A stretch of DNA of 64,000 nucleotides. It comes from a virus. Location: the IMG/VR virus record IMGVR_UViG_3300013132_005564, positions 1-64,000 of that record; one strand, 5' to 3'. A model generated the notes under the pieces. That model was not told the origin of the DNA, made no database searches, and worked only from the letters and a program-made list of their open reading frames with translations. A program made the position numbers and the translations under genes. Of the stretch, positions 13,644 through 64,000 are shown piece after piece (the first letter of the stretch is position 1; every line of letters starts with the position of its first letter).

Positions 13644-16600
13644 ATGAATCGTCGTTTATTATTGACCGAGGACATGATGAACCAACAAGTTTTTGAGGAC
13701 GAGGACTACCTCTACAAGTCCCTCAACGGCCAGATCAACGTCGATGAGGCGCAGGGTATCGTTGAGGCCTTCGTCGCCGGCGTCGGCAACAAGGACTCCG
13801 TGGGTGACATCTGTCTGCCGGGGTGCTTCACGTCCTCCCTCAAGCGCAGGAAGCCGCGCGTCGTCTGGGGCCATGACTGGAACTCCCCGATCGGCAAGGT
13901 CCTCGAGATCTACGAGGTCGGGCCGAACGATCCGCGCCTACCGGCAAAGATGCGCAAGGCGGGCATAGGTGGCCTCTACGCGAGGGTGCAGTTCAATCTG
14001 AAGGCGGAGAAGGGCAGGGAGGCTTTCGCCAACGTTTCGTTCTTCGGCATGGAGCAGGAGTGGTCCATCGGTTACAAGACCCTGGACGCGGTGTTCGACC
14101 CGGTTCAGACCGCCAATCTCCTGAAGGAAGTGGAGCTCTACGAGGTGTCGCCGGTTCTGCACGGAGCGAACCAGCTGACGGGGACGATATCGATCAAGGC
14201 CGACGAGGCCGAGACGCAGATCAAGGAAGGGAAGGGTCCTTGCTGGCCTGGATACAAACAAGTCGGCATGAAGAAGGGCAAGCGCGGGGGGATGGTCCCC
14301 AACTGCGTGCCCGTCGATGGCAAATCGCTCGAGGACGAGTGTTGCCCTGAAGAAAAAGCGGCCGACAAACCGGCCCTGCGTGATCCCAAGGGCGGACTCA
14401 CGGCGGCCGGTCGGGCCCACTTCAAGCGCACCGAGGGTGCGAATCTGAAACCGGGCGTCAGGGGCGCGGCCGACACGCCGGAGAAAATGCGCAGGAAGGG
14501 TTCGTTCCTCACCCGCTTCTTCACCAACCCGAGTGGTCCGATGAAGAAGCCGAACGGAAAACCCACGAGACTCGCCCTTTCGGCGGCGGCGTGGGGGGAG
14601 CCGGTGCCGCAGAACGCGTCGGACGCATCCGCGTTGGCGGCGAAGGGTCGTCGTCTGCTGGAGAGATACGAGAACTCAAAGAAGAAGAAGAAGGACGACG
14701 AGGATTCGATCGAGAACAAGAACCACGTCGCGGCGATCTACGCGGCCGCGAGCGCCCCGCAAAACGAGACGTTCGGGAGGGCATCGCAGCTGACCAGGGC
14801 GTTGGCCGCGAGGTTCGGCGGCCCGGTGAGGTTGGTGACGGCGGACAACGACATAGCGATCTTCGAGATGGGCGCGGGTCAGTCGACGGAGACGATGAGG
14901 GTCGCCTACCACTACGACGGGGATGAGTTCATGATCGGCACGGCTCAGCAGGTGAAGCCAGAGACCGTCTACATCCCGATAAACCAGACGACTTCCGGGC
15001 AGACCGTAGGCGGAGTCACCGCCGGCATATCCGCGCAGCACGGGCACCACGCCGGACACCAGGGTCATTGCTGCCCTGGGTGCGGACACGGTGGGAGTTG
15101 CGACGCTTCCGTCGCCCTCTCGCCGGGCGATGACCCGAGGATTGCGTTCGTAAAACTCAAGTCCCTGGGCGACCAGCTGAATTTCAAGGTGGTCCCGACC
15201 GACGGGGGATTCATACTGGAGGGGTTCGGCCTCCTCAACGAGGAATCCCAGGATTTCGTGGCGAAGAAGGTCGCCGAGGACATGGAGAAAAAGTTCCTGA
15301 ATCCGATCGGGAACGTTTCCCGAAGGAGCCTTGGCGTCCCCGACATCAGAGGATTCGTCCGTGGTTTCAACGTGGACATGAACCCGCTCACCGCGAGGGA
15401 CGCCGACCTCGACAGGCTGGTCCTGGAGGGCAACCCGCTCATCAACATGGGCCGCGGCATCCCCGACCCCACGCCTTTCGGTTCGGCCAACAGACCGTCT
15501 TTTGATCTGCCCGCCGCACGCGGGGACTTGGATCTCGGCGCCCCGAGGATGATGCCCGCCGTGCCCGACGTGCCGCGAAGGGAACCCGAGGAGGTCCCCG
15601 AGCCCGTCAAGCCAAAGGCGCCGCCGGTCAGGCCTCCGCGCAGGGAGCCGTCAAGGCCCGAGAGGGAACCGACAAAGCCGCCAGTCCCCGTCCCGACGAG
15701 ACCCGAGAGGGAACCGGCAAGGCCGAACACCCCGGTTCCGGTTCCGGTTCCGGTGCCAACGAGACCCAGGGAACCGGTCCCGATCGGCGAGGCGAGCAAC
15801 GACAATTTCGCCATAGCGGCCATGGGCGGCGGAAAGCGCACGCCCAAGCAGATAGCCGAGGCGCTGGCGAGCGTCGATTCCGAAAAACGCGAGAGCAGGC
15901 AATCAAGGATGATCCGTCTGCGCGACAGCGGGTTCGACGAGATGCGACGCCTCATGCTCCTCGACGGACCGGATGCCGGAATGGCCGATCCGAACAGGAA
16001 CGGACGCCGTGGACGCGCCGTGCGAATCGATTCTGACGAAACGCTCGAGGAAGTTCTCAGGAGAAGAAGAAGCGGACAAGACATCTCGGACATGACGGAG
16101 GACATTGACCTGCCGAATCCTGGAGACCGTTCCCTCACGGACCCAACCCCTGGGGATGCAGGAATGGCGGGTCGCCCTAGAACGAGGGAGGAAAGCGCTG
16201 ATCTTGGGAGAAAGATCTGGTTGGCAAGGACTCACGACAGGCTTTCGTTGGAGGAGGCTGGCCGTCGCCACGGAGTCTCAAGAGAGGAGGCCCGTCAACT
16301 TGAGCTGAGGCACCAGAAGTACCTGCGAGATCTCGGTGTCGACCATCCGAACAGGGTTGGCAGAGCGACGATCGACGACGCAAACAGTGGTCTGACCGAC
16401 GCCGAGGCCGACCTTCTCCGCAGGCGCCTTGACGGCGAGATGCTCGAGGAGGCCGCCGAGCGACTTGGCACAGACAGGTTTGCCGTGAGAAGGATGGAAC
16501 AGCTTGCTCTCGCAAAACTCAGGAACAGAATAGTGCAAGGTGACGCCGACGCTGGCATGGCCAGGGGCGATGGAGGCAGGGCGGTAGAAGCCGACCGCCC

Positions 16601-19600
16601 AAAAGCGTCACGGGTCGCAAGACCCGAAAGCCCGGGAAAGCGAAGAATAAATAAGGTTGACCCGACCTTCAGCCAGATCTACGAGTCGCTGAGGGATTCC
16701 GGCCCGGACGGGCTCACCGCACCCCAGAGATTGCGCGTGGCGGCGATGATCCGTCTGCGTGACTCCATCAACAACAAGATAACGGCGATGCGGGTCGCCG
16801 GATCCAGGAGGCGCACGTCCCATCTTGGACCGGAAATACAGGAGCTAAACGACGGGATCAAGGGGGCGCGGGAGACGGCCGCCGAGGTCGCCAGAGTCGT
16901 CGTCGGATCAAAAGACGACTTCCTCAATTCCGCCATAAAAACCGCCAACTCAAAACAGGACGACGACCTCGACGCGTCGCTCAATTTCAGGTCGTTCGAC
17001 GCCCTGTCGGACGCCGGCGGAGACGTCGCCAAGGCGTCGCGAATCCTCGGCATGGACGGGGATGTTGTGCTTCTTCGGGCGGCGGCGCACTCAATGAGGC
17101 TGGCCGCCTCCGCTGGACCGGCAAGGCGGCGCATCGCGAGACTCTCCGAGAAACTCAGGCACAAGCTCACCTCTGCAGAGTCCGTCACGCTGAGGATGTG
17201 GATCAACGGAGCCTCGGACTCAGACATAATCGACAGGTTCCCGGCGTTTGCCGACGAGAGGGCCGTCGTCGCCCAGAGGATAAACGCGTTGAGGAAAATA
17301 GGAATAGATCCGACCTCGCCCGAGATGCTGTCCGAGGTCAAGTCCGGAAGGATCTTCTACGACGAGTTCGGTCTCTTCGCCGAGTTGGTGGACGACGCAG
17401 GGCAAACGACGCTGAACCGCCTGGGGGACGGACCGATGGGCGGAATGAACAAGGGCGTCCGTCGCGTGGTGTCCGCCGATTTCGGCGACGGGAGGCGCGA
17501 CTACGCCGTCACGAGGACGATTTCGCGCGACAGGGCCAGCTACGGAGACGAGCTCGTGATGCTGGTTCCGATCAACGGCGACGACGAAGCGACCGTGTCC
17601 ACGCTCATTGGCAGGGCGCTACTCGGGGGTGACTTGCGGGCCTCCAGCGTGGAGTTCCCCGCCGTGATCCGAAGCTCACGCGGGAGGGTTGTCGGGGTGA
17701 CCGACGCATCGGGGAGGAACGTCCCCCTGTTCGGAGAGAGGTCCATAAACGCCTCCCAAGCCCTGGTGGCGACCGAGTCGGCCGCGGCGGAGGAGAGGGC
17801 GTCCGAGCTGATCAAATCAATACGCGACAACGACTCCGCGTCGAGGATAAAGATGGACCAGGACGTGGAGGTCGCCGGAAGGCGCTCGACCAGCCTGAGG
17901 CTGGCCCTCGATCACCTCCTGCAGACCGGGGATTGGATCGGTGGCGACCTCGGCGTGACCGGCCGCGTGCCGGACAGGGACGTGATGTTCTCGTTCGGAC
18001 TGGACGCCGACGACGACGGGAGCCCGATCGTCCCCAACAACTCAACCCAGGACGAGTTCAACGCGAGGGCGGTCTCCGATTTCCTCAGCGACAAACCGGG
18101 CGCGACCGAAGGGGAGATCGACGACTACCTGTCTCGCGTCAACGCGTCGAGGATCGCGCAGGTCAAGAGAAAGGCCGAACTCGCGGCGAAGGAATCGGAT
18201 CGTCTCCGTCACATCAGGGACTCCGCGGAGGAACGCCGTTTGCAAAGAGTGATCGACCTGGAGACGCTCGACCAGAGAATCGCAGAATCGCTCGCGGAGG
18301 AGACGCGGTTCATCTCGTCGCTGAGCGGGGAACAACTCTCCCAGCTGTCGAGGGGCCAGGGCGGGTTTGCGTATGTCGTCCACAAGGGACCGGACAGGCT
18401 CAAGGACGGAGTCCTCGACCCGAGCAAGTCGGCTGGCGTGGACAGGTCGGTCGCCGAGGTCGCTGGCCAGGGCGACACCCGCGGAGCGAACAGGCAGTAC
18501 ATCCAGCGCTTCGTGCAGTCCTACGACAACAAGAGACAAATGGTCTCCTCCGCCGACGACATGATGGCGAGGATTTCGCGCGGAGAACGACAGCTGACCG
18601 TGGACCAGTCGATAAGAAGGTCGCTGAAGGCCGCGTCCCCGCTGATCGCGAGAATCGCCTCCGACTCGGGTTTCCTCAACCTCGACGAGCTCCCAGAGCA
18701 GAAAATTTCCGAGGTCATCAGGGATTTGACGAGGTTCTCCGAATCCCAGCGGGACGACCTCGCGCGCTACGAGGGGATCATGGGGGCCATACGGCGGTAC
18801 GGCGGCACGAACGCCGACCAGCTCCTGTCGGCGGAGGCCGACCCGATCTCGGCCCTGAGCTCACTGAACTTCTATGGCAGGTACGCCGACGCCGACCTGC
18901 CGCGTGACGTCGTGCAGTTTGAGGATGGTTTCGTTGACAACCTGACGAGGAGGTGGAATCCGACCGACGAGGAAATGCTGGAACGCTGGAACGGGTTGGG
19001 CGGAATCCGCGGCGGTGCGTTCGTGGTCCACGGCAAGAGGGATTCCCAGATAGTCAGCGGAGGCCTGCTCGGTCCAACGTCGGAGGCCCAGATAATTTCG
19101 CCACTGAAGCCGTTGGTCGGGTTCTCCACCCCCGTGAGATTGTACGGACAACGGCAGGACGACGACCCGGAGTCCCTAATCCCGATGCTCGGCCCGGCGC
19201 TCGCCGCGAGGGCGATAAAGATGCACAAGAGGGACGGCGAGATAGACATCGAGAGACTGCTCATCGACCCGGACCTAGCTCCAGACGGCTTCGTCGGTTA
19301 CCCCGACGGCGCCTCCGCCGGAATGGCTTCCGCGGACACGACGGACGACGAGTCCCGGACGTACTCGGACTATCGGAATTCGTTGACGCCCCGAGGAAAA
19401 TTGTTCGACGCGCGACTGAGCGGCCTACTACGGGAAGACGTCAATTTCGATCAAATGATCTTCAACGAGGACGACGCGAATTTCTTCAGAAAAACTTACT
19501 CGGAATTAGTTGAGGACAGAAAGAATCCCAGCGAAGCGGACATCTTGAGGCTCGAGGCGCTGATCGACCGCGCCGAGGCCTTCTATCTCCCGTTCCGTCG

Positions 19601-26756: not shown

Positions 26757-26809
26757 CTAATGTCAACTTGCACTTCCTTCATTGGTAGTGCTCTACAATG
26801 GGAGGCGCC

Positions 26810-28615: not shown

Positions 28616-28819
28616 ATGAACGGCAGACCAAGCGGCGGGTACACCCGCGGGAACCGTGTTATGGGTTATGATAAACCTACACAAAATAACGCAGTCAAAT
28701 TGAAATATCACTGCATTGCGACGGGCGAGAAACGCCAGTTTCCGTGCGGCAGTTGCGTCAACCACAAGGGTTGCCTGGCGACGACGATGCAATACAAGGA
28801 GCGAAAACATGGAACCTGA
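28616..28819 (+). CDS. Small Cys-rich (zinc-finger-like) protein
   Basis: HC.........PCGSC....GC pattern; bridges two genes with short gap/overlap. Confidence 0.55.
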   Translation: MNGRPSGGYTRGNRVMGYDKPTQNNAVKLKYHCIATGEKRQFPCGSCVNHKGCLATTMQYKERKHGT

Positions 28820-36324: not shown

Positions 36325-36330
36325 TATAAT
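36325..36330 (+). promoter_or_regulatory. Putative -10 box TATAAT
   Basis: Perfect TATAAT in an AT-rich gap 50 nt before ATG 36381. Confidence 0.45.
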
Positions 36331-36380
36331 TGTTTGATGATTGTCACGTTCCGCCCCCCGGAACAGAGGGTTTAGGACAG

Positions 36381-50808: not shown

Positions 50809-51373
50809 CCAAACTCACAACAAGGCCGACCCGCTCGGCGGGATAGTTCCACAGGAGCTCGTCACCGGGGACATCATGCGCGGGTACGGTCCGCGGCGAG
50901 GAAACCTGGAGCGCTTGCTTCGCTACTGGCGTCCGATAATGAAAAAGCCGGGCGGGTTCCGCAGGTGCAGGGTCATCCTCGCGGATCATCCGGAGCTTTA
51001 CCCCCTGAACAACATATGCGCATGGCTGCACCACGAGACGACCGGACTGTGGCCCAACGAGGGCTGCCACCACCCCGGCATGAAAAACTGCAGGAGGAAG
51101 ATGCGCGGCGTCGTGAACGGCTCGCTTTGGAGCGATGCCGATTTTGACGACCGCATCAGGAAGCTGACCAGCAGGGCGGCGAAGAAGAAGGACCTCAGGT
51201 CAAGCGGAGGCATAGACGCAGCGCCCCCGTACGAACCGTTCGTGCCCGTCATCACCGACGACGACTGGGACCACGCCTGGAAGGTAATGGACGACTTCGT
51301 GAAGATGGAGACCAAGTTCGTCGCATTCGTTTGCGACGACAACAACTGGGAGATGTTTGATTCGGATGTCTGA
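50798..51373 (+). CDS. Conserved phage head-region protein with a Cys/His motif
   Basis: LERLLRYW...PGGFRRC...L......ICAWLHHETTGLWP, resembling a small domain I recall from actinophage head genes. Confidence 0.65.
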   Translation: MQSNQTHNKADPLGGIVPQELVTGDIMRGYGPRRGNLERLLRYWRPIMKKPGGFRRCRVILADHPELYPLNNICAWLHHETTGLWPNEGCHHPGMKNCRRKMRGVVNGSLWSDADFDDRIRKLTSRAAKKKDLRSSGGIDAAPPYEPFVPVITDDDWDHAWKVMDDFVKMETKFVAFVCDDNNWEMFDSDV

Positions 51374-56400: not shown

Positions 56401-58929
56401 AGCAGGGCGGGCCTAAATGGCGAAATGACCATGTTGGAGGCGTTCGCGCAGGTTTTTGGTTTGGACAAGGGGGACGCCGAGTCGCTGAAGCGCACCAAGC
56501 TATTCCTCGCCCCAGGCGTGTCGCCAGGGACGTCCATGGAAACGTTCCGTCAGGCGGCGCTCCTGTTCCTGATGACGAAACTCACCGGCGACGACATACC
56601 GAAAGGCGAGAGGCCCAACATCATGTTCCTCGACGTCGTAGACATCCCGGAAGGCTCGGACCTCATCGAGTCCTACCTGAGGCACGTAGGACGGGAGGAA
56701 GTCGCCGCGGCGTACGTCGCCGGGGGCAGGGATCCAAATTTCCTTGAAATAGACAGCACAAATGGGGACAATGCAAGGCAGGCGGCGAACCTAACGGCTC
56801 AACAGATCGCCCCGCCGCACTTGGCGGCTGCGACGAAAAAGCGCGACCGGTGGTCCAGGCACAGAACCCTCAACCACATCTTCGGCAGGGGCGAGAACGA
56901 TGATGACGCGCTGGTACCGGGCCTCTCCGAGACCGACAAGCCTCGGGTCGGAAAATTCATCTACGTGTTCCAGAACCCCAGTCGTTTCTCCACCGACGGC
57001 TACTCATACGCCAGGAACAACGATCAAAGCTCGACCGTCAACAGGATCGCAACAAAGGTGAACAAGGCAATACTGACCGACGATCCAAACGACTGGTTCG
57101 AGGCATTCGATGAGGTGGTCAGCGCCTACACGGCGACCCTCAGAAAGAGAGACGCCGCGCTGAGTGCGTGGAGGGGGGCCGCCGGGAGCGACACGAGGAG
57201 CAACAGGCCACGCAGAGAATTCGTGCTCATGGGCGAGATGGCGGAATCGCTCGAGACCATCCTCGCCGAGGTCTTCAGTCCGAACATGCACAAGGTGGAG
57301 AATGCTCTCCGCCTGAAGAAGTCGACAAGCGCCAAATACCAAAACTACATGGGCAACCTCAGGCGCACGAGCAGGACGGACAATCTGCGAAACGTGACAA
57401 TGCTCGATGACAGCGAGCTCGCGCCGCCAACCAACGCCGACGGGTCGCCCGCGGCCAGCAGGGGCCCGGGTGACATCATCGGAATGGTTGAAGCGCACCA
57501 GGCACTCGGTTTCGTCCCGCACGTGCCGATGGACGTCACGCCGACCAGCGACTACGCGCTGGTGGAGCTGAGCGACCGATCAATAGAGACATTGGCGGTC
57601 GCCCACGTCGCAATGGATACGTTGCTCGACCCCGAAACGGGCCAGCCGGTTTTCGAAGTCTACACCGACGTAGGTGGTCGCGTAAGCCGCGAGGATAGCG
57701 GTAGGAGGCGTTTCGCCCTGCACAACGCCCTGTACCATCTCGCCGGCTGGAAGGGTCGTCCGTTGTTGGTCACGGAGGACGAGTTTCAGAAGATTGTCGG
57801 ATCCAGTCAGGTGCCGAACCAGACGGAAAACGTGGATCGCCAGAGGCACGTCCCGGTCGGCTACCTCATAAGGAGGGGCATCTCGCAAGCGAAGTCCGGG
57901 AAGAGCACCCACCAGATGGCGCGCGAGCTCATATCTGGCACGCTCTACATTCCCCTTGAGGGTGGTGACGCGGGCGGGAAGGGCCTCAATTTTGCCAGAC
58001 CCAACCAGGGGATGACCAGTTTCGGGGGCACCGACCCGATGGGGGACATAATCCTTGCGGCCATACCCTCCACCGCCAGGGTCGCGTCAAGAACGCAAAT
58101 GGGGAGACTCCAAGATCAGTTGATGGACATGTACATGCATTTCTTCGACAACATCTCGCACTACTCGGGCATCGAAAAGACCATGCCGATAGACCTCGAC
58201 GCGGACAACGACCCCGACTGGAGCCACGACAACCGGGTCAACCCGTACTGGAGAAGCAACAGGGAAAACGCCGCCGCCGCCTACTACGTTCCGTGGGGAG
58301 GTATCGCGTCGCCGGGCAGATCGGGTGTAGCCCCCGTGAACAATGTAGGAGCAGTCGACGCATCGGATCCCGAGGCGCTCAGGGATCTCGCAAGAATGGT
58401 CATGGCCGCCGCCGCGCAGGGAACCTACGGAGAAGCCGAACGGGTGGAGGGGGATCCGCTGGGTGGGGGCGAGTGGTGGAACATGACAAGGGCCCAGGTG
58501 TTCGGATGGATGGTCCAAATGGAGATCCTCAAGTCAATGGAGATCGCGGCACTCAAGGCGGCCGGAAAGGTCCCGTGGAACGAGAAGATAGCCAACCTCG
58601 TGAGAGCCCAGGAAATCCTGTCGTTCCGGGGGGACGAGCTCATCCAAGGCATAATTTTCGGAATCGACGCCTACGGAGCAGACATAGACACGCCGACGAC
58701 CAACAACGCAGTTCTCCTGCGGGGCGGCAACCTCGGCAACCACTTGATGATCCTGAACCGAACCGCGATCGTCTTCATGGAACAACCCGTCACGCAAACG
58801 GGCGAACAGGAAGTGGTAGACGGCATCCGAAATCCTCTCGCGCGCGATCCAAAAGACCCGAGCAGGGTCTGGAACCCCTGGACAAATCAGTTCATAAAAG
58901 ACCCCGATTACAATGGGGGTGATAAATGA
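53446..58929 (+). CDS. 1827-aa protein with the DPTP anchor and a C-terminal ART-like domain
   Basis: Anchor at 54145-54246; AAM 54433 and AGM 54619; C-terminal GWKGRPLLVTEDEF, LIRRGI, GGKGLNFA, GIDAY, LMILNRTA. Confidence 0.8.
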   Translation: MESDSTFSKVVDSETGTTFAVLVASSDGITAHGSMKQGVEWATWVNRGEKSMARIVRSLDPSLEITKFVPLNEENILLKSSSFGTTTAKELRVHLERKSLGEDLTKAADPTNPPQKTNPEGVDEHQPEPEYESLSSWMMSDVAVSEFDVQIKQTAVHFKAMQFMRNRRFSSFLLSVKQTNASLVNGSWATRPSLAPAMGDVLNSYDRKTKLHASESLGLSGYFNKALPIGMRQLPPPHLVRNADNDAYIYEGIPWINRGRGILDPTPGNAASAIRSGVRAFGGRMTDIVDRTNRISRLTRNDAERMRRLDLVPASNDIASLLPQGEETRAAMGRMRRRLASLADSVAPSERTRGDGEEVLTRRQARRNEEALARAGINPSATSSPDEETASAGMRKVTGDDPQVPEVVNLSERRNAQPDTELTGLEETESGRVERGAKPRSDGNGMLKNLLSRLSRGSKRINSADSPNPPELDESDDLPDYDGPQVVKVSDDPWQMDPATRDMLLAALKDAVPAGTYATFSSRFGEDDLDWPNFSPSEQSSLLRELGYRRDELLDIVTELMTPEFSADKDYRSDGVVTPESVIEAIRNDFVSLRSGGVNLYADVMALVAINDILSSKDHETEARASAWRMIDNRNRSVVSRRADIQRRDVREASSSRISGPVGERTVISQTGGRGSDSSVRRVALSKLNPRVLVLATVPVAPGRLLSDYSDEERAALLSSATQMRASIAEHLARKMGLPSDTELSEDVIANWMANNSDTDGSKIGVFAHNLIVLDDLAIAVNSGKPGNDEWNALTMPARDKIISNANVGSRPEVAKTNQSQRRRGRPTKSPAPPLPPTPPNQTPPQTPAGRTRPQIGMTPPKNRIADWQDPTQPVPETVDASTQMVTIAGEDGAEKQVLLSSLGRPNQYDFSNTVSVKGISYVMENQTGLYRDPVTGLFLDDYSGIPITLGKTVPRPRELEQVNQKRGAPTVSYPSIQLSEKNSQSRAGLNGEMTMLEAFAQVFGLDKGDAESLKRTKLFLAPGVSPGTSMETFRQAALLFLMTKLTGDDIPKGERPNIMFLDVVDIPEGSDLIESYLRHVGREEVAAAYVAGGRDPNFLEIDSTNGDNARQAANLTAQQIAPPHLAAATKKRDRWSRHRTLNHIFGRGENDDDALVPGLSETDKPRVGKFIYVFQNPSRFSTDGYSYARNNDQSSTVNRIATKVNKAILTDDPNDWFEAFDEVVSAYTATLRKRDAALSAWRGAAGSDTRSNRPRREFVLMGEMAESLETILAEVFSPNMHKVENALRLKKSTSAKYQNYMGNLRRTSRTDNLRNVTMLDDSELAPPTNADGSPAASRGPGDIIGMVEAHQALGFVPHVPMDVTPTSDYALVELSDRSIETLAVAHVAMDTLLDPETGQPVFEVYTDVGGRVSREDSGRRRFALHNALYHLAGWKGRPLLVTEDEFQKIVGSSQVPNQTENVDRQRHVPVGYLIRRGISQAKSGKSTHQMARELISGTLYIPLEGGDAGGKGLNFARPNQGMTSFGGTDPMGDIILAAIPSTARVASRTQMGRLQDQLMDMYMHFFDNISHYSGIEKTMPIDLDADNDPDWSHDNRVNPYWRSNRENAAAAYYVPWGGIASPGRSGVAPVNNVGAVDASDPEALRDLARMVMAAAAQGTYGEAERVEGDPLGGGEWWNMTRAQVFGWMVQMEILKSMEIAALKAAGKVPWNEKIANLVRAQEILSFRGDELIQGIIFGIDAYGADIDTPTTNNAVLLRGGNLGNHLMILNRTAIVFMEQPVTQTGEQEVVDGIRNPLARDPKDPSRVWNPWTNQFIKDPDYNGGDK

Positions 58930-59345
58930 TGTCGGACTCGGTCAATCAACTCACCCCGCTTGAGGTATCCGAGTACGTGGACGAGTACTCGGCGGTTGCC
59001 GAGATAGCAAAGTACCCGCCGTTCAGTCTGCCTCGGTCACCGAGGGAGTCCGAATTCCTGCTCGACTTATCCCGCGAGTTCGACGCGTTCGTCAACGGCG
59101 ACAAACCGTACGACTCCTACCAGTCCGTCCTTGACGAGTACGAGCCGGAGTTGGTGAGGGCGAGGGCGTGGAAGTCTTTGGGTTACGATCCGGTGCGCGC
59201 AACACGGGAGGCGATCAAGAAGGAGCTGGAGGAAACCGGGCTGGACCCGAAACACATGCCATACCGGACAGACAACGTGTTCGACTCCCAAGCAAAGGTT
59301 TTCGTAATTTTCGCAGAAAAAATCGTTCCCTGGGAGTTCCTGTGA
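58926..59345 (+). CDS. Small acidic protein coupled to the 1827-aa gene
   Basis: ATGA overlap; 139 aa, rich in E/D/Y/F. Confidence 0.7.
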   Translation: MMSDSVNQLTPLEVSEYVDEYSAVAEIAKYPPFSLPRSPRESEFLLDLSREFDAFVNGDKPYDSYQSVLDEYEPELVRARAWKSLGYDPVRATREAIKKELEETGLDPKHMPYRTDNVFDSQAKVFVIFAEKIVPWEFL

Positions 59346-60265: not shown

Positions 60266-60340
60266 CATCAGCCCATCCGGGTTTGAAGTATTCTTGTCGG
60301 TACTATAAGCGCGTTTCGGCGACGACCAGAACGGAAGACG

Positions 60341-63300
60341 ATGGACGAATCAATTCAGCCTGGGGATTGCTGTCCGTTGTCTGACGATGACATAGAAACA
60401 AAGGACGTCTCGTTCGGTCCGCGAATGGTGAGGCCGGACAGTTTTGATGCATACGTTGACAAGGAATCAGCCAGGGCCAGGGCGAGGATGCTCGGTTGCA
60501 TCGGCATCAGGCAATACGGTTCAACCAATGGCGGGACGGTGTGGATGCCGTGCAGCAACGAGTCCGACTACAGACGGGTGACGGGCACCAACTTCTCGGG
60601 TCGCAGGCAGAGGCGAAGAATGCTGAAGGCCGAGCTGGGAGAAGGCATCTCGAAGAAGGCGCTCGGTGCGACCATAGGCATGGTTGGCGGAAGAGTCAAC
60701 ACGAACCCGGCAACGGCCATAGACGCCGACCTTGACGGATTGGTTCTGGAGGGTCTGCCATTCATCAATCTCGGTAGGGGCGTGCCGGACCCGACGCCTG
60801 GCGGCACAAACGAGCTGTTGCCGAACGCAGACAACAGGAATTTCGCCATGGCGGCAATGTCGAATCGCAGGGGGCCGAGGATCTCGCCCCCCGGCGAAAT
60901 TGAGCTTTCCAGGGATGGCGACGACTCCGCTTCGCCCGCGACGAGGATGCCCAGCCAGAGGGCAACGCGCTCCAGAAAGAGGGAGACGACTTTCGCCGAT
61001 GTGGACACAGACAGGTTTGACGAACTGATAGCGAGGATTGCGGACGACGTTGCGAGTTCAGAGGTGGCCGCGGATGTCTCCTCGGACGAAGCTGTCGGCA
61101 AGTTGCTTGACGACGTCAGGGGCATCGCATCTTCGGTGGCGGAGGTTGTTGACGGGCACATTGACTCCCGTCCCCGAAGGAGCACGTCGACAAGGGACGC
61201 GGCCGAGGAGACCTCAACGCGAATCACGGCGAAGGCCATTGGGACCGTGATGGAGATCTCCAACAACCCGACGCAGTCGCTATCGGAAAACGAGAATCTC
61301 ACGAGGCTCGTGACCTCATCCATAATCGAGCGTGGCGCCGCGGAAGTGGCGTCGTTGACCGGGAAACCTGGGATATGGGCATTCCTGGTGCAGGCGATGA
61401 TCGGCGGCGCCTACGCCACCCAGAGGGCCTGGGAGTTGCTTGCCAGAATTTTCGGCGTGGAGAACAACACCGGTTGGGTTCCAGAACCGACAGGCAGGTT
61501 CGCCGAGGCGCTCGCCCCCAGCCTCGCAAACGAGCGGAAGAAAGCCGCCAGAAGTCGAGCCCTTGACTCCTCCGGGAGGGCCATTGACGCACTGCGCCAG
61601 GCTGGATTCGCGATATCGGACGCATCCGAGGTTCCGGCGATAGCGGACGACATGGCCTCGGCGCTGGATTCCCCGGAGCTGATTGAGTTGCCGGGCGACA
61701 AGAAACCCGGGCCGGCGCCGACGCTTGACGCTCTCGACGAAATAATCCAGAGGATCAACGCGACGACCGGCAAGACCAGGCCGCGGGGCGCGCGCAAGCC
61801 CTCGTACTCCAAGTACAGGGGGACGAGCGAGGAAATACTTCGAAACAGGATGGACATAGCGGGCGTGCCGAGCGGCATAGACGATGTGTACCGCACCAAC
61901 TCGGTTGACGTCCCGACGGACAACGAGCGACTGGCAGCCAAGCTGATCTCTACGCCGGGACGAAATGGCCAAGGCGCGCTCAACGCGGAACTTCTCTACA
62001 GGGCGCTCTCGGACAGATCGGCCCTCAGGTCGTACGTGTCGCCCGTTGATTCACCCTTCGTGGCGCAACTCGCGACGCTGATAGAGGAGGGGAGGCTGCC
62101 ACGTCTCGCCGACGCCCTGCTGGAAATGTCGCCGCAGACGGTGGAAAATTTCCTGGCCGTTCCGCCGCGACCAATCATCTCTGCGGCGAGGGCCGCGCGC
62201 AAGACTCTTCGCCCGTCCGGGTCGTGGATGGCGAGAATATCCAACGACCCCTTTGAGACCGCCTTCCACATGTTGAGGGCCAAGGACTACCACCTTTCTT
62301 CCATATTCTCCGGCGCCGACAGCGGAAAGCTCACGGATGCCGTAGACGAGCTGGTCGGCAACAACGTATCCGAGACGGCAGCGATATTCGGGTCCTTGGT
62401 CGCCTTGAACAAGGAAAGGCTCGCGGAGGCGTACGACGGATCGCAGAGCGTCGCCCAAGGCGGCAACCGCCTGCTCAGGACCGCGAGGAACCTGATCGCG
62501 TCGGCCACCGAGAACGACAGCGTGTGGGCGGCGACCCGGGACTCAATCTCCGACGTCACTGCGGCGATGCTCGGCGGGGACTCCGCCGATGCGGCGATGT
62601 CCCGGCAGGTGGTCAGGTTCGGGAGCAACTACCCGAGGCACAGGAGGAAGACGGGGGACTGGTCGCCGATCGCCAACAAGATAAGAGACGGGGTCAAGGC
62701 CTACAGGGCAAGGTACGGTCCGATTGCGTCAAACTCCGCGGATCTCAGTCGCTTCGTGAATTTTTCCTACCCCGAGCTCTTGAGCGAGGCCTCCGAACTG
62801 ATCGATTTGATGAAGGAGAAGGTCGAGTTCGGGTCCCTAAAGTTCGAGGACTACGCGCGCAACGGGTGGATAAACCGGGACACGGCGGAGCTCGACGTTG
62901 ACGAGTTTGACCCGACGAACCTGGAGACGATCTTCGACAAGGGTTCGCAGATGGGTCTCTTCAAGTCGATCGGCGTGGTCCTCGTGGCTGCGTCAAGGGT
63001 GGCCCCGTCGCGCGACGAGAGGGAGGCCGTCCTCGACCTGATGGATGAGGTCAACGAATGGACGTTCACCGCCCTGCCCCTCTACTCGGAGCCGCGGTCG
63101 GTGACCGACAGGCGCCGCGGGATATTCCCGTCGTCCGCATCGGCCGACGCAGGAATGACCGTCAACAGGCCCGTGCCCGACGACGTCCGGCAAACACTGA
63201 TGTCCCTCACTCGCCCGTACGACTCAGGACAGACGCAGGGTCTGCCGACGATCAGGATGCAGAGGAAGCTCGTCGAGAAGGCCAATGAGCTCATGAGGAA

Positions 63301-64000
63301 CGACCTACCGGACGACCTTGCGCAGAGAATGGCCGCGAGCCCGAACGGGCCGACGATAGACATCTCCGAGCTGTTCCTCGGCACGGCGGAACAATTCCGC
63401 TGGGACCAGGCGACGATCGCCTCGTTCTACGAGGAAGTGGCCGAGATGATGAACAGGATGGTCCAGGAGGTGCCCGATGCGAAGAGGCGCCAGAAACTTG
63501 CGGACATGTTCACTGGGGCGCTCGAGGACATAGCCGACAACATGGACAACGAGAACACCGAGTTCTTCGACAGGGTCGGGGACATCCCTTCACGAACGGT
63601 CGGACGACTCTCGCGGAGGGCGTCCAGGTCTCAGGTCGCCGAGGATACGGCAGACGCCGGAATGACGGTGAACAGGGGCGTGCCGGAGGACGTGCGCGAG
63701 ACGCTGATGAGTCGCCAGAGCCCGCTCGGGTCGGGAGAAAAACTCGGGCTGCCAGAGCGCAGAATTTCTCGGAAGCTTACCGAGGTTGCCAACGACATTT
63801 TTGCGGCGGATCGCATTGCGAACGACTCGCCGCTGCCATCCCCCGGCATCGCCGAAGTGTTCTTCAACACGGCAGGTCAACTGAGGTGGGACCGACCGAC
63901 GACCGAGTCCTTCTTTGAGGACGTTCGGCGCATGATGAACCAAATGGTCTCGGAGATCCCGGATTCGACGCGCAGGAACAGGCTGGCGGACGTCTTCTCC
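60341..64000 (+). CDS. Large multi-module protein (>1220 aa, runs off the right edge; absent from the ORF track)
   Basis: Manual translation MDESIQPGDCCP...LGCIGIRQ..WMPC...KKALGATIG...DADLDGLVLEGLPFINLGRGVPDPTP...NFAMAAM. The same frame gives ADAGM at 63143 and 63650. Its absence from the track fits having no stop codon in the window. Confidence 0.85.
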   Translation, partial: MDESIQPGDCCPLSDDDIETKDVSFGPRMVRPDSFDAYVDKESARARARMLGCIGIRQYGSTNGGTVWMPCSNESDYRRVTGTNFSGRRQRRRMLKAELGEGISKKALGATIGMVGGRVNTNPATAIDADLDGLVLEGLPFINLGRGVPDPTPGGTNELLPNADNRNFAMAAMSNRRGPRISPPGEIELSRDGDDSASPATRMPSQRATRSRKRETTFADVDTDRFDELIARIADDVASSEVAADVSSDEAVGKLLDDVRGIASSVAEVVDGHIDSRPRRSTSTRDAAEETSTRITAKAIGTVMEISNNPTQSLSENENLTRLVTSSIIERGAAEVASLTGKPGIWAFLVQAMIGGAYATQRAWELLARIFGVENNTGWVPEPTGRFAEALAPSLANERKKAARSRALDSSGRAIDALRQAGFAISDASEVPAIADDMASALDSPELIELPGDKKPGPAPTLDALDEIIQRINATTGKTRPRGARKPSYSKYRGTSEEILRNRMDIAGVPSGIDDVYRTNSVDVPTDNERLAAKLISTPGRNGQGALNAELLYRALSDRSALRSYVSPVDSPFVAQLATLIEEGRLPRLADALLEMSPQTVENFLAVPPRPIISAARAARKTLRPSGSWMARISNDPFETAFHMLRAKDYHLSSIFSGADSGKLTDAVDELVGNNVSETAAIFGSLVALNKERLAEAYDGSQSVAQGGNRLLRTARNLIASATENDSVWAATRDSISDVTAAMLGGDSADAAMSRQVVRFGSNYPRHRRKTGDWSPIANKIRDGVKAYRARYGPIASNSADLSRFVNFSYPELLSEASELIDLMKEKVEFGSLKFEDYARNGWINRDTAELDVDEFDPTNLETIFDKGSQMGLFKSIGVVLVAASRVAPSRDEREAVLDLMDEVNEWTFTALPLYSEPRSVTDRRRGIFPSSASADAGMTVNRPVPDDVRQTLMSLTRPYDSGQTQGLPTIRMQRKLVEKANELMRNDLPDDLAQRMAASPNGPTIDISELFLGTAEQFRWDQATIASFYEEVAEMMNRMVQEVPDAKRRQKLADMFTGALEDIADNMDNENTEFFDRVGDIPSRTVGRLSRRASRSQVAEDTADAGMTVNRGVPEDVRETLMSRQSPLGSGEKLGLPERRISRKLTEVANDIFAADRIANDSPLPSPGIAEVFFNTAGQLRWDRPTTESFFEDVRRMMNQMVSEIPDSTRRNRLADVFS
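63155..64000 (+). repeat. Diverged tandem duplication of a 169-aa module, each copy starting at an AGM linker
   Basis: AGMTVNRPVPDDVRQTLMS (ATG 63155) and AGMTVNRGVPEDVRETLMS (ATG 63662). The later parts also align (FRWDQATIASFYEEV..MMNRMV.EVPD..RR.KLADMF / LRWDRPTTESFFEDV..MMNQMV.EIPD..RR.RLADVF). Confidence 0.85.

What the first reader, a model, noticed from the sequence alone, without database searches (positions are those of the whole stretch)
13644..64000. Family of giant phage head polyproteins punctuated by a conserved D-G-x-x-A-(G/A)-M linker: candidate proteolytically processed effector payload
Seen: about 30 copies of an acidic linker ending AGM (also AAM, once GGM) in 7 genes. Met codon positions: 15822, 15981, 16164, 16557, 17445, 19323, 20745, 23715, 24660, 25266, 25944; 31094, 32033, 33191, 34109; 37404, 40950, 41472, 42063, 43527, 44340, 45477, 45513, 45981; 48047; 52632; 54439, 54625; 60857, 63155, 63662. 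Examples: DGPDAGMA, DGASAGMA, DGADAGMG, DGEAGMS, DGPNAGMA, GDAEAGMS. Ala and Gly codons vary synonymously (GCC/GCA/GCT/GCG; GGA/GGC/GGG/GGT), so the constraint is on the peptide. The motifs fall between recognisable domains, and I did not see this linker in the minus-strand genes. Known: large polyvalent phage proteins carry similar domains. Poxvirus I7 (AG/X) and ASFV pS273R (GG/X) cut virion polyproteins at small-residue motifs. Inference: these are capsid-packaged polyproteins cut near A-G/M into dozens of separate effectors delivered with the DNA. I do not know of this being described for a tailed phage.
Basis: partly seen in the sequence, partly recalled or inferred. Interest (0 to 1): 0.95.

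Follow-up and report, generated by a model that had tools for sequence, protein, structure and literature searches.

The report
Phage head-cargo polyproteins with cut-site linkers
An uncultured lake phage fills about 63 kb between its portal/head-protease genes and its capsid gene with giant proteins made of some 44 modules joined by one short peptide ending in Met plus a small residue; this peptide is most likely a protease cutting signal, so the phage probably loads its head with polyproteins that are cut into many separate proteins, but no cut has been measured.

Summary
All 31 listed Met codons are in frame. AGM occurs 32 times in the giant ORFs against 5 expected, and the full motif occurs 25 times there and never elsewhere on the contig. 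I accept 29 of the 31 sites, doubt 52632 and 54439, and add 62597.

- **Context:** every giant ORF lies between the portal-MuF gene with an S78 prohead protease (fused to the first giant ORF) and an HK97-type capsid gene just outside the window.
- **Lineage variants:** in five related genomes the most over-represented peptide word is a lineage-specific variant ending in Met (EAGM, DSGAM, PSGSM, ISGRM). Matching module borders carry each genome's own variant. Synonymous codons vary, so the constraint is on the peptide.
- **Module borders:** homology breakpoints cluster at the sites. All 8 sites covered by AlphaFold models lie in low-confidence coil between folded domains.
- **Address segment:** five proteins per genome carry one conserved segment upstream of the first site.

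Best reading (0.55): capsid-targeted cargo polyproteins cut at [A/G]-x-Met|small by a phage protease, probably the S78 protease; conserved zincin-like modules are the main rival. Cleavage, packaging and injection are unmeasured. Earlier agents of this scan reported the same layout in related and unrelated phage genomes. It is a new variant of known prohead-protease processing and polyvalent proteins.

The parts
11367..13586 (+). Portal protein fused to a MuF-like head-morphogenesis domain (739 aa)
   Evidence: phrog_2662 portal 1e-99; phrog_2468 head morphogenesis at aa 495-737. No motif copies.
13644..26756 (+). Giant ORF 1 (4370 aa): S78 prohead protease, DUF6321, address segment, then 11 linker sites giving 12 fragments
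   Evidence: Sigma70_r4 (aa 916-961) and the exonuclease-like hit (aa 2793-2948) each lie inside one motif-bounded module.
13746..14201 (+). Peptidase_S78 (HK97-type prohead serine protease) domain, aa 35-186
   Evidence: PF04586 7e-11; phrog_80 head maturation protease 1.3e-26. His77 and Ser141 are invariant in 62 relatives.
15363..15506 (+). Address segment NP.TARDAD.D..VLEG.P.IN.GRG[VI]PDPTPG in ORF 1
   Evidence: hmmsearch 1.1e-24; paralogous BLAST hits.
15804..15827 (+). Linker site, Met 15822 (NFAIAAM|G)
   Evidence: G002 has FAIAAM|G. In the pLDDT<50 segment 153-174 of the model.
15963..15986 (+). Linker site, Met 15981 (DGPDAGM|A)
   Evidence: Orthologues DGPEAGM|T and DDAEAGM|S. L004 has three extra modules inserted exactly here. 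Low-pLDDT coil.
16146..16169 (+). Linker site, Met 16164 (TPGDAGM|A)
   Evidence: Lies 3 residues before the folded sigma-like domain.
16539..16562 (+). Linker site, Met 16557 (GDADAGM|A)
   Evidence: Orthologues SGAM|A, SAGM|A and DSGAM|R. Lies 7 residues after the end of the domain.
17427..17450 (+). Linker site, Met 17445 (DGPMGGM|N)
   Evidence: Orthologues SGGM|S, SAGM|A; L010 VGSM|S. Low-pLDDT coil after the last strand.
19305..19328 (+). Linker site, Met 19323 (DGASAGM|A)
   Evidence: Orthologues DAEAGM|A and EAEAGM|A. Homology breakpoint 1 aa away.
20727..20750 (+). Linker site, Met 20745 (DSVSAGM|S)
23697..23720 (+). Linker site, Met 23715 (DGPMAGM|S)
   Evidence: Orthologues DGPSAGM|S, DGPTGSM|S (L010) and TDSGAM|S (L011), all before the same SGLTNR module start.
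24642..24665 (+). Linker site, Met 24660 (AGAQAGM|G)
   Evidence: Orthologues EAEAGM and NDSGAM|S. Breakpoint 3 aa away.
25248..25271 (+). Linker site, Met 25266 (SGAEAAM|G)
   Evidence: Orthologue EAEAGM. Breakpoints 9-11 aa away.
25926..25949 (+). Linker site, Met 25944 (GGSDAGM|A)
   Evidence: Orthologues DTEAGM|A, GDSGAM|R and GPSGSM|A.
28716..30821 (+). Scaffold-like protein (701 aa): Cys knuckles, long acidic tract, conserved R-L-x-[ST]-M-G-[YF]-K, C-terminal DGS[FY]PI..DL.NAI.A.GRAKDK unit (two copies here)
   Evidence: Alignment with 11 relatives. The same C-terminal unit ends the protease fusion protein gp27 of Gordonia phage DalanDe. No Pfam or PHROG hit.
30833..36124 (+). Giant ORF 2 (1763 aa): address segment, 4 sites, HTH array confined to module 788-1093, HExxH near the C-terminus
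30899..31039 (+). Address segment in ORF 2
   Evidence: hmmsearch 3.3e-24.
31076..31099 (+). Linker site, Met 31094 (NFAVAAM|S), first site after the address segment
   Evidence: Conserved as FAVAAM|S in G001 and G002.
32015..32038 (+). Linker site, Met 32033 (DGADAGM|G)
   Evidence: Orthologues GPEAGM|T and EVEAGM|S. Breakpoint 5 aa away.
33173..33196 (+). Linker site, Met 33191 (TDGEAGM|G), start of the HTH-array module
   Evidence: Orthologues DGEAGM|A and DTEAGM|A. First HTH hit starts at aa 787-799.
34091..34114 (+). Linker site, Met 34109 (PDGEAGM|S), end of the HTH-array module
   Evidence: Five homology endpoints fall exactly on it.
35606..35620 (+). HExxH (GLHEFFHHYLGQG), zincin-like candidate a
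   Evidence: Conserved in G000-G003. No family hit.
36330..47675 (+). Giant ORF 3 (3781 aa): 9 sites, HExxH at aa 717, no address segment detected near the N-terminus
   Evidence: Module order differs from G001, with breaks at the sites.
37386..37409 (+). Linker site, Met 37404 (HDPMAGM|D)
   Evidence: G002 has DPAAGM|G.
38478..38492 (+). HExxH (HTLDHEFNHVDDF), zincin-like candidate b
   Evidence: Conserved in all six genomes compared.
40932..40955 (+). Linker site, Met 40950 (DGADAGM|A)
   Evidence: Breakpoint 6 aa away.
41454..41477 (+). Linker site, Met 41472 (FDASAGM|A)
   Evidence: G001 has DAEAGM|A. Start of a 94%-identical module that sits elsewhere in G001.
42045..42068 (+). Linker site, Met 42063 (DDGPNAGM|A)
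   Evidence: Consensus only; no orthologue aligned.
43509..43532 (+). Linker site, Met 43527 (ADGASAGM|A)
   Evidence: Consensus only; no orthologue aligned.
44322..44345 (+). Linker site, Met 44340 (DDGPSAGM|G)
   Evidence: Start of a 92%-identical module shared with G001.
45459..45482 (+). Linker site, Met 45477 (AEGPNAAM|R)
   Evidence: Orthologues EGPNAAM|R and EGPEAGM|S. End of the shared module.
45492..45515 (+). Linker site, Met 45513 (GGDAEAGM|S); left copy of a perfect 24-nt direct repeat
45960..45983 (+). Linker site, Met 45981 (GGDAEAGM|G); right copy of the 24-nt repeat
   Evidence: the repeats enclose 444 nt of 55.4% GC; the flanks are 62-66% GC. GGDAEAGM is the G001-type consensus.
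47672..50425 (+). ORF 4 (917 aa): address segment, one site, HExxH
47801..47944 (+). Address segment in ORF 4
   Evidence: hmmsearch 4.4e-26.
48029..48052 (+). Linker site, Met 48047 (DSPLAAM|S)
   Evidence: Orthologues DGPMAAM|T, DGPMAAM|A and GVSGRM|A.
49061..49075 (+). HExxH (ALHEVGHVLDYVG), zincin-like candidate c
   Evidence: Conserved in G000-G004.
51357..53456 (+). ORF 5 (699 aa), conserved (69% identity to G001/G002). Its single EAGM-I (Met 52632) is probably not a linker
   Evidence: IEDEAGM[IV] is also kept in G003, whose linker motif is DSGAM; G004 has EAGF.
53446..58929 (+). ORF 6 (1827 aa): address segment at aa ~230, one accepted site
54133..54273 (+). Address segment in ORF 6
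   Evidence: hmmsearch 1.3e-27.
54607..54630 (+). Linker site, Met 54625 (ETASAGM|R)
   Evidence: Orthologues DAEAAM|R and EPSAGM|R.
60341..64000 (+). Giant ORF 7 (5330 aa; ends at genome 76330, outside the window): address segment and 12 sites. NUDIX and Zeta-toxin kinase each lie in their own terminal module
60686..60832 (+). Address segment in ORF 7
   Evidence: hmmsearch 8.7e-25.
60839..60862 (+). Linker site, Met 60857 (NFAMAAM|S), 9 residues after the address segment
   Evidence: Orthologues FAIAAM|S and FALAAM|T.
62579..62602 (+).
   Evidence: Orthologues DVSAGM|T, EPMAAM|A and DSGAM|A.
63137..63160 (+). Linker site, Met 63155 (SADAGM|TVNRPVP)
   Evidence: Orthologues DAEAGM|TV and GDSGEM|TV. 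Start of the first of two paralogous units.
63644..63667 (+). Linker site, Met 63662 (TADAGM|TVNRGVP)
   Evidence: Start of the second paralogous unit, 507 nt after the first.

Best explanation
The giant ORFs are head-cargo polyproteins of a tailed phage.

- Loading (inferred): each chain is brought into the assembling prohead by a conserved ~45-aa address segment. In ORF 1 it is brought in by direct fusion to the S78 prohead protease.
- Cutting (inferred): a phage-encoded protease then cuts the chain at disordered linkers carrying [polar]-[A/G]-x-Met followed by a small residue. In this genome the linker reads D-G-x-x-A-G-M-[A/S/G].
- Enzyme and bond (inferred): the S78 protease is the most likely enzyme. 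By analogy with the P3-x-P1 rule of T4, phiKZ and SPN3US proteases, the cut would fall after Met.
- Outcome (inferred): about 44 domain-sized products, likely injected with the DNA. They include sigma-like, HTH, nuclease-like, NUDIX, Zeta-kinase and zincin-like modules and many of unknown fold.
- Second role of the linkers (inferred): they also act as joints where modules are gained, lost and reordered.
- Shown here: the motif, its enrichment, its restriction to these ORFs, its lineage-specific variants, its position in disordered linkers at module borders, the address segment and the genomic context.
For: 1. Context. TerL lies at 9799-11112(-). Portal-MuF follows, then an S78 protease fused to ORF 1. 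An HK97-type capsid gene lies at genome 76665-78008 (PF05065 1.5e-43; PDB 1ohg 2e-50). All giant ORFs therefore lie inside the head module. The same gene order holds in 6 genomes, including a complete 137.8-kb one.

2. Enrichment and restriction. In the complete relative G005, SGRM occurs 14 times in the block and 0 times in the other 31.7 kaa.

3. Lineage variants. The top-enriched 4-mer in each genome is a variant ending in Met: EAGM 28 vs 0.39 expected, SGAM 23 vs 0.31, SGSM 20 vs 0.16, SGRM 14 vs 0.15. Orthologous borders switch variant, for example DGADAGM|A / AEAGM|S / SDSGAM|A / SPSGSM|A.

4. Peptide-level constraint. Synonymous codons vary, including AGY/TCN Ser and AGR/CGN Arg. SD-like sequences are not enriched.

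5. Module borders. 20 of 100 homology breakpoints lie within 12 aa of a site against 5.3 +/- 2.2 by chance. Modules are reordered or inserted exactly at sites. A 24-nt perfect repeat of the linker brackets a low-GC module. None of the Pfam or PHROG domain hits in the site-bearing ORFs spans an accepted site.

6. Structure. 8 of 8 modelled sites fall in pLDDT<50 coil at domain edges. Two non-consensus AAM copies lie inside or at the end of helices.

7. Address segment. It occurs once per protein in up to five proteins per genome in all six genomes, with the first site downstream, in several proteins only 4-20 residues away. This resembles the T4 capsid targeting sequence followed by a gp21 site (PMC9026906).

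8. Protease. His77 and Ser141 are invariant. In lineages with a free-standing protease protein, that protein carries a conserved NP.[ST]G[RK]M-G segment, which the G005 cargo linker ISGRM-G resembles.

9. Canonical substrates. The capsid protein has an invariant G-A-N-M. It also has [ST]-[SAG]-[ML] at the position that maps onto the HK97 K103|S104 maturation cut.

10. Precedent. SPN3US gp245 cuts after A-x-E with Ser at P1' and cuts itself (PMC10052503). phiKZ cuts after S/A-x-E (PMC9026906).
Against: - No proteomic or biochemical data exist for this phage or its relatives, so cleavage is not shown.
- The S78 domain of the window and of relative L004 is identical at every position that varies in the family, yet their P4 preferences differ (mixed D/S/N/E against E). 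The upstream part of the motif is therefore not simply tuned to that domain.
- The candidate capsid and scaffold sites do not co-vary with the lineage's cargo motif. Most relatives have Leu-Pro at the capsid site.
- Two or three conserved HExxH modules offer another enzyme.
- ORF 3 (3781 aa) has no detectable address segment near its N-terminus.
- Most modules have no known function, so 'effector' is an extrapolation.
- Both AlphaFold models rest on shallow alignments (8-9 sequences). Half of the second model has low confidence.
Confidence: 0.55

Rival explanations
1. The linkers are cut, but by the zincin-like (HExxH) modules embedded in the cargo proteins, in cis or in trans, either inside the head or after injection. 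This is what Iyer et al. proposed for metallopeptidase domains of polyvalent proteins. The S78 protease would process only capsid and scaffold.
For: - Three HExxH segments are conserved across relatives. The one in ORF 3 is present in all six genomes.
- The proteins carrying them diverge fast: ORF 4 is 43% identical to its G001 counterpart while the portal is 96% identical. Such divergence could track the linker variants.
- The S78 domain is identical in two genomes with different P4 preference.
- The literature offers a precedent as a prediction (PMC5512222).
Against: - None of the HExxH regions matches a peptidase family in Pfam, PHROGs or NCBIfam, so their peptidase nature is unproven.
- The first polyprotein is physically fused to the S78 protease.
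- The P3-x-P1 form with small P3 and small P1' parallels known prohead proteases.
- The free-standing protease proteins of relatives carry a G-R/K-M-G segment like the cargo linker.
Confidence: 0.2
2. The motif is a flexible inter-module joint that is not cut. It would be kept because it serves as a recombination joint for module exchange, or binds a common partner such as scaffold, DNA or a chaperone. The giant proteins would then act as intact multi-domain polyvalent proteins.
For: - Modules are gained, lost and reordered exactly at the motif. One module is bracketed by a perfect 24-nt repeat.
- N4 virion RNA polymerase and some polyvalent proteins are packaged unprocessed (PMC5512222).
- No cleavage data exist.
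Against: - Recombination needs DNA identity, but most linkers differ at synonymous sites.
- Passive linkers do not normally keep an invariant Met with a small residue after it across lineages while the upstream residues change in concert.
- Intact chains of 4000-5300 aa would have to pass through the tail channel.
Confidence: 0.15
3. The polyproteins are injected intact and cut by a host protease. The lineage variants would reflect different hosts.
For: The variants differ between lineages that may infect different hosts. Met followed by a small residue resembles a natural protein N-terminus.
Against: - Very close relatives (portal 91-96% identical) already differ in motif detail.
- No known bacterial endoprotease has this specificity (own knowledge).
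- The phage itself encodes at least one suitable protease fused to the substrate.
Confidence: 0.05
4. The conserved Met codons are internal translation starts, so that modules are also made as separate proteins.
For: Every site has an in-frame ATG followed by a small residue, as many natural N-termini do.
Against: - SD-like sequences upstream are not enriched in 5 of 6 genomes. The single exception follows trivially from Glu-Ala codons.
- The conserved part lies upstream of the Met at peptide level, with synonymous variation.
Confidence: 0.03

Closest known systems
Prohead-protease processing of internal head and ejection proteins: T4 gp21 with IPI-III and their capsid targeting sequences; phiKZ gp175; SPN3US gp245
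   Same: - A head-maturation serine protease is present.
- The recognition word is short and of P3-x-P1 form with a small P3: L/I-x-E, S/A-x-E, A-x-E with Ser at P1'.
- N-terminal targeting propeptides are removed by the cut.
- Many non-structural head proteins are processed and later ejected.
- The protease cuts itself (PMC9026906, PMC10052503).
   Different: - P1 here would be Met, not Glu.
- The protease is of the HK97 type (S78), not the T4 type.
- Known substrates lose one N-terminal propeptide. Here up to 12 sites per chain would release strings of unrelated modules from 1800-5300-aa proteins.
- The code drifts between close relatives.
- Nothing has been measured here.
Polyvalent proteins of phages and conjugative elements (Iyer, Burroughs, Anand, de Souza, Aravind 2017, PMC5512222)
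   Same: - Very large multi-domain proteins lie next to virion genes.
- They hold mosaic, rapidly shuffled domains, including zincin-like, Zeta/NUDIX-type and DNA-binding modules.
- They are predicted to be packaged and possibly processed.
   Different: - That work proposed metallopeptidase autoprocessing in general terms and described no repeated linker code.
- Here an explicit, countable site marks nearly every module border.
- The first chain starts with the prohead protease, and a shared address segment is present.
- The size (up to 5330 aa, about 63 kb in all) exceeds the 2-15 domain range described.
Herpesvirus assemblin (S21), structurally related to HK97-type prohead proteases
   Same: A serine protease inside the procapsid cuts scaffold-linked substrates at (V/L/I)-x-A|S, a P3-x-P1 word followed by a small P1' (own knowledge).
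   Different: It has only two sites, on its own precursor and on the scaffold. There is no cargo polyprotein.
Gordonia phage DalanDe (Bendigovirus) gp27, a 1633-aa 'capsid maturation protease'
   Same: - It is the closest cultured relative of the protease (about 42% identity).
- The protease is embedded in a long fusion protein next to the capsid gene.
- That protein has several G-x-M sites and ends in the same DGSFPI..DL.NAI.AFGRAKDK unit as the scaffold-like protein here.
   Different: - It has one fusion protein of moderate size and no strongly enriched word.
- It has no array of giant ORFs.
- The protease is internal rather than N-terminal.
   Same: Virion proteins of a large DNA virus are cut at small-residue motifs during maturation.
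   Different: Those enzymes are cysteine proteases of eukaryotic viruses. No such domain was found here, and the invariant residue here is Met.

Membership tests
Prohead-protease-processed head cargo (T4 IP / phiKZ-SPN3US ejection-protein type) | A functional prohead maturation protease is encoded in the head module | tested here: met
   PF04586 7e-11 and phrog_80 1.3e-26. His77 and Ser141 are invariant in 62 relatives. The gene lies between portal and capsid genes.
Prohead-protease-processed head cargo (T4 IP / phiKZ-SPN3US ejection-protein type) | Substrates carry the protease's short recognition motif at accessible positions | tested here: inconclusive
   A sharply enriched motif lies in disordered linkers. 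The specificity of this protease is unknown. Candidate sites in capsid, scaffold and protease proteins share only Met/Leu plus small neighbours.
Prohead-protease-processed head cargo (T4 IP / phiKZ-SPN3US ejection-protein type) | An N-terminal targeting sequence is removed by the cut | tested here: inconclusive
   A conserved address segment lies upstream of the first site in 5 proteins per genome. Its targeting function is not tested. ORF 3 lacks it.
Prohead-protease-processed head cargo (T4 IP / phiKZ-SPN3US ejection-protein type) | Processed fragments are physically present in the virion | not testable with these tools
   This needs virion proteomics. The phage is known only from metagenomes.
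Polyvalent proteins (Iyer et al. 2017) | A single polypeptide of a phage or plasmid combines many unrelated domains, with mosaic variation between relatives | tested here: met
   S78, sigma-like, exonuclease-like, HTH array, NUDIX, Zeta and HExxH modules are present. Modules are reordered and inserted between relatives.
Polyvalent proteins (Iyer et al. 2017) | Located with virion or late genes, consistent with packaging | tested here: met
   The ORFs lie between portal-MuF/protease and the major capsid gene.
Polyvalent proteins (Iyer et al. 2017) | A zincin-like metallopeptidase (MPTase) domain is present | tested here: inconclusive
   HExxH segments are conserved, but there is no family-level hit.
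Poxvirus I7 / ASFV pS273R-type polyprotein processing | A cysteine protease of the I7/pS273R (Ulp1-like) kind is encoded | tested here: not met
   No such family appeared among Pfam or PHROG hits of any large ORF.
MuF polymorphic toxins | A MuF domain is fused N-terminally to a variable C-terminal toxin | tested here: not met
   The MuF-like region is fused to the portal (aa 495-737) and has no toxin tail. The toxin-like Zeta module sits in ORF 7.

The most novel reading that the evidence does not exclude
A whole clade of lake phages, probably of Actinobacteria, devotes a quarter to two fifths of its genome to a virion-delivered proteome. This proteome is written as a few giant polyproteins with an explicit proteolytic punctuation code of address tag, then module, cut site, module.

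- The code has an invariant Met and a lineage-specific prefix that changes in concert at about 40 sites even between close relatives. This might insulate each phage's cargo from the proteases of co-infecting relatives.
- The same linkers serve as joints for module exchange.
- This would be polyprotein expression on an RNA-virus scale in a tailed dsDNA phage, run by an HK97-type prohead protease with Met specificity.
Probability: 0.35. Interest if true: 0.9.

Novelty: new variant of a known kind. Interest (0 to 1): 0.8.

Why it matters
If the linkers are cut, these phages would show how a tailed phage can carry dozens of different proteins into a cell using only a few genes, one address tag and one protease.

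- **Annotation:** it would give a simple rule for splitting thousands of residues of uncharacterised phage sequence into discrete, testable modules, 44 in this genome.
- **Enzymology:** it would define a new specificity (Met at P1) for the widespread S78 protease family.
- **Engineering:** it would offer a natural design for loading foreign proteins into capsids, as the T4 targeting sequence has been used.
- **Evolution:** the concerted drift of the code between close relatives would be a tractable case of enzyme-substrate or joint-sequence co-evolution.

Related actinophages such as the Gordonia Bendigovirus phages can be cultured, so the question is directly testable by virion N-terminomics.

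Tried and rejected
- **Internal translation starts:** rejected. SD-like words are not enriched upstream of motif Mets.
- **DNA-level repeat or recent duplication as the source of the motif:** rejected as a general cause, because synonymous sites vary. It does hold for one pair of linkers (24-nt repeat).
- **Asp-Gly chemistry or self-cleaving peptide:** rejected. Lineages with PSGSM or ISGRM lack D-G.
- **Covariation of S78 residues with the motif type:** no clean pattern. The residues next to the catalytic His (78, 81) split D/S against N/E, but not in step with the motif. The window and L004 have identical protease domains.
- **Capsid maturation site as a decisive test:** ambiguous. There are two candidates, the invariant GANM and TSM|A at the HK97-equivalent position. 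The second is S-A-L-P in most relatives.
- **The G-R-M-G site in protease proteins:** it is conserved regardless of the lineage's cargo motif and is lost in the window's clade, so it is only a hint.
- **Searches that gave nothing:**
  - PDB sequence search with the protease region found no hit.
  - Foldseek of the ORF 1 model gave only weak sigma-factor matches.
  - NCBIfam on five modules found no hit.
  - Single-protein locus searches for two segments found only close relatives.
- **The ~517-aa protein after the protease in relatives:** first taken for the capsid protein. It is instead a scaffold-like acidic protein. The true capsid gene lies after the last giant ORF.
- **Complex prediction:** not used, because an enzyme with a short substrate is outside what that tool tests well.

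Full report
**What the window is.** The window is the first 64 kb of an 84.5-kb IMG/VR viral contig (about 57% complete, GC about 61%).
- The large terminase lies on the minus strand at 9799-11112.
- On the plus strand come a portal fused to a MuF-like domain (11367-13586) and then a run of very long ORFs: 4370, 601, 701, 1763, 3781, 917, 699, 1827, 365 and 5330 aa.
- The last ORF starts at 60341 and ends at 76330, outside the window.
- The 4370-aa ORF begins with a Peptidase_S78 prohead protease (PF04586 7e-11; phrog_80 1.3e-26). His77 and Ser141 are invariant in 62 relatives.
- Directly after the last giant ORF lies an HK97-type major capsid gene at 76665-78008 (PF05065 1.5e-43; PDB 1ohg 2e-50).
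- About 63 kb of giant ORFs therefore sit inside the head-morphogenesis module, where scaffold and internal head proteins are normally encoded.

**The observation.**
- AGM occurs 32 times in the block against 5.0 expected. The acidic-x-A[GA]M pattern occurs 38 times against 4.8 +/- 2.6 in shuffles.
- In an unbiased count AGM is the most over-represented tripeptide.
- [DESN]AGM[AGST] occurs 25 times in the block and never in the remaining 6.9 kaa of the contig.
- Codons for the conserved Ala and Gly vary. Shine-Dalgarno-like words are not enriched upstream.
- The consensus is D-G-[A/P]-[D/S/N/E]-A-G-M-[A/S/G], often followed by basic residues.
- By comparison with relatives I accept 29 of the 31 sites. 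I doubt 52632 and 54439, and I add 62597.
- Over the whole genome this gives 38 sites and 44 fragments with a median of 314 aa.

**Relatives.** The portal has 181 relatives and the capsid protein 285 relatives in IMG/VR, on contigs up to 160 kb. One is a complete 137.8-kb genome with terminal repeats.
- I fetched the portal-to-capsid block of five of them. Gene order is conserved, and the block is 35-66 kb long.
- In each genome the most enriched 4-mer of the giant ORFs is a different word ending in Met:

| Genome | Word | Observed | Expected |
|---|---|---|---|
| G001 | EAGM | 28 | 0.39 |
| G002 | EAGM | 18 | 0.32 |
| G003 | SGAM (DSGAM) | 23 | 0.31 |
| G004 | SGSM (PSGSM) | 20 | 0.16 |
| G005 | SGRM (ISGRM-G) | 14 | 0.15 |

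- Other lineages show GP.G[AS]M, GPVGxM, [LV]SGSM and [VI]SGKM.
- In the complete genome SGRM occurs 14 times in the block and 0 times in the other 31.7 kaa.
- At orthologous module borders each genome uses its own variant. For example, the window has DGADAGM|A where relatives have AEAGM|S, SDSGAM|A and SPSGSM|A. Before the same SGLTNR module start, DGPMAGM|S corresponds to DGPTGSM|S and TDSGAM|S.
- Both Ser codon families and both Arg families are used at motif positions.
- What is constant is Met, a small residue after it, and Ala or Gly two positions before it. The prefix changes in concert within a genome.

**The sites are module borders.**
- Of 100 internal homology breakpoints between the window's giant ORFs and those of the five relatives, 20 lie within 12 residues of a site. 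Random site placement gives 5.3 +/- 2.2, with a maximum of 15 in 2000 trials.
- Relative L004 has three extra modules inserted exactly after DGPEAGM, and each ends in its own copy of the motif.
- In ORF 3 the modules 1710-1877, 2669-3059 and 3211-3781 are 88-94% identical to G001 but stand in a different order, with breaks at the sites.
- One 156-aa module is bracketed by a perfect 24-nt repeat of the linker (45492-45515 and 45960-45983). It has 55% GC against 62-66% in the flanks, and its linker is of the G001 type.
- None of the Pfam or PHROG domain hits in the site-bearing ORFs spans an accepted site.

**Structure.** Two AlphaFold2 models were made from shallow alignments of relatives.
- ORF 7 aa 4540-5329 (mean pLDDT 74.5) folds as a helical domain, a NUDIX domain and a Zeta-kinase domain. 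Its three sites (model residues 11, 165, 472) fall in the pLDDT<50 coil segments 1-16, 150-166 and 452-478. A non-consensus AAM-E lies at the end of a helix inside the NUDIX module.
- ORF 1 aa 560-1300 (mean pLDDT 57.5) has five sites (168, 221, 282, 413, 709), all in low-confidence coil. The two well-folded domains (about 285-406 and about 446-702) start or end within 3-8 residues of a site. The first is sigma-like, judged by the Pfam hit and weak Foldseek matches. AAM-I at residue 476 is inside a helix.
- Flanks of the sites are more hydrophilic than flanks of other Met residues.

**A shared address segment.**
- BLAST and an HMM show one copy of a ~45-aa segment, NP.TARDAD.D..VLEG.P.IN.GRG[VI]PDPTPG, in five proteins of the window's genome and in two to five proteins of each relative.
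- It lies near the N-terminus (aa 30-300). In ORF 1 it lies after the protease part (aa ~590).
- The first linker site lies downstream of it, in several proteins only 4-20 residues away; for example, ...DPTPTGSM in G004 and NFAMAAM|S nine residues after it in ORF 7.
- This arrangement is what T4 internal proteins have: a capsid targeting sequence followed by a gp21 site (PMC9026906).
- ORF 3 lacks a detectable copy near its N-terminus.

**Which enzyme, and where it cuts.** Nothing here measures cleavage.
- The S78 protease is favoured for four reasons:
  - It is fused to the first polyprotein and lies in the same module.
  - The constant part of the motif has the P3-x-P1 form with small P3 and small P1'. 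This form is documented for phiKZ (S/A-x-E) and SPN3US (A-x-E, Ser at P1', with self-cleavage) (PMC9026906, PMC10052503). It suggests a cut after Met.
  - Free-standing protease proteins of relatives carry a conserved NP.[ST]G[RK]M-G segment, which the ISGRM-G cargo linker resembles.
  - The capsid protein has an invariant G-A-N-M. It also has [ST]-[SAG]-[ML] at the position that maps onto the HK97 maturation cut.
- Three points weigh against it:
  - The window and L004 have identical protease domains but different P4 preferences.
  - The capsid and scaffold candidates do not follow the lineage variants.
  - Three conserved HExxH segments, one of them in all six genomes, could be zincin-type peptidases of the kind Iyer et al. 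proposed for autoprocessing of polyvalent proteins (PMC5512222). They match no peptidase family in Pfam, PHROGs or NCBIfam.

**Comparison with what is known.** In working principle the closest systems are prohead-protease processing of internal head and ejection proteins in T4, phiKZ and SPN3US. In protein type the closest are polyvalent proteins.
- Several features differ from all of these: the scale (up to 12 sites per chain, about 44 products, 25-42% of the genome), the Met-based code, its concerted drift between close relatives, and the fusion of the protease to its presumed substrate.
- I found no paper describing this layout in five full-text searches.
- Cultured relatives of the protease are actinophages of Brevibacterium, Gordonia and Arthrobacter. 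Gordonia phage DalanDe has a 1633-aa protease fusion protein with several G-x-M sites and the same C-terminal unit as the scaffold-like protein here.
- This suggests an actinobacterial host and offers an experimental entry point.

**Earlier notes of this scan.** Other first-stage notes on this genome described the address segment, the 24-nt repeat, the module duplication at 63155/63662 and the domain blocks of ORF 2. I checked the first two fully and the others in part.
- Follow-up agents have reported the same A-G-M-type linker in related genomes. They have also reported analogous linker codes (DGFASR, L-x-K, [L/F]SSG, ESLxE and others) in unrelated phages.
- Those are unchecked AI notes. I did not use them as evidence.

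**Verdict.** The interpretation as head-cargo polyproteins with protease cut-site linkers is the best-supported reading (0.55). A zincin-mediated variant (0.2) and an uncut-joint reading (0.15) remain open. It is a new variant of known kinds and can be tested directly by virion N-terminomics or a simple recombinant cleavage assay.

Noticed in passing
window 26798-28603 (+): The 601-aa ORF between polyprotein 1 and the scaffold-like gene is basic and Arg/Pro/Ser-rich. It holds at least six tandem ~40-aa repeats (RPADTSNQRAE.ARQ...RPVDRL.G.GGPGYDES). Homologues were seen only in the closest relatives (G001, G002), and there is no family hit. It could be an internal DNA-binding head protein.
   Followed up: no
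window 28716-30821 (+): The scaffold-like 701-aa protein has two CxxC knuckle pairs and a very long acidic tract. It carries a conserved R-L-x-[ST]-M-G-[YF]-K segment right after the acidic tract. Its C-terminal unit DGS[FY]PI..DL.NAI.A.GRAKDK is preceded by G-x-A-[LM] and is duplicated in this genome. The same unit ends the protease fusion protein of Gordonia phage DalanDe.
   Followed up: partly
window 45492-45515 and 45960-45983: A perfect 24-nt direct repeat encodes GGDAEAGM, the linker consensus of relative G001. It brackets a 444-nt module of 55% GC in a 62-66% GC neighbourhood, which looks like a recently acquired cassette.
   Followed up: yes
window 35606-35620, 38478-38492, 49061-49075: Three HExxH segments are conserved across relatives and match no peptidase family. 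They are possible zincin-like peptidases carried as cargo modules.
   Followed up: partly
L083:10000-12327 (genome 74000-76327, beyond the window): The last two modules of the 5330-aa ORF are a NUDIX hydrolase (PF00293 4e-8) and a Zeta-toxin-like kinase (PF06414 2.8e-19). The Zeta region also matches phrog_16619, 'minor head protein'. Each sits alone between two linker sites.
   Followed up: partly
window 14250-14320 (ORF 1 aa ~200-225): A Cys-rich insert, GPCWPGYKQVGMKKGK.G.MVPNCVP, follows directly after the protease domain. It is present in some lineages and absent in others, and it contains a conserved G-x-M-V.
   Followed up: no
G005 contig 7419-12512 (-), loci L194: In the complete relative, the only G[RK]M[GAS] copies outside the head block are two near the N-terminus (aa 47 and 54) of a 1698-aa minus-strand protein. 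This may be another processed virion protein.
   Followed up: no
window 4011-5246 (-) and 5144-5941 (-): A PAPS-reductase-like gene (phrog_2302 1e-72) and a ParB-like nuclease/partition gene (phrog_723 4e-36) lie upstream of the terminase.
   Followed up: no
L193 (Gordonia phage DalanDe ON755184.1, 22424-27325): The cultured actinophage gene annotated 'capsid maturation protease' is 1633 aa. The S78 domain sits at aa ~1131-1296, behind a 1100-aa N-terminal extension and before an acidic scaffold-like tail. Several Met residues are preceded by G-x.
   Followed up: partly
window 59168-60265 (+): A 365-aa ORF between two giant ORFs carries DUF3721 and DUF5872. DUF3721 also occurs at the N-terminus of the 5330-aa ORF.
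   Followed up: no
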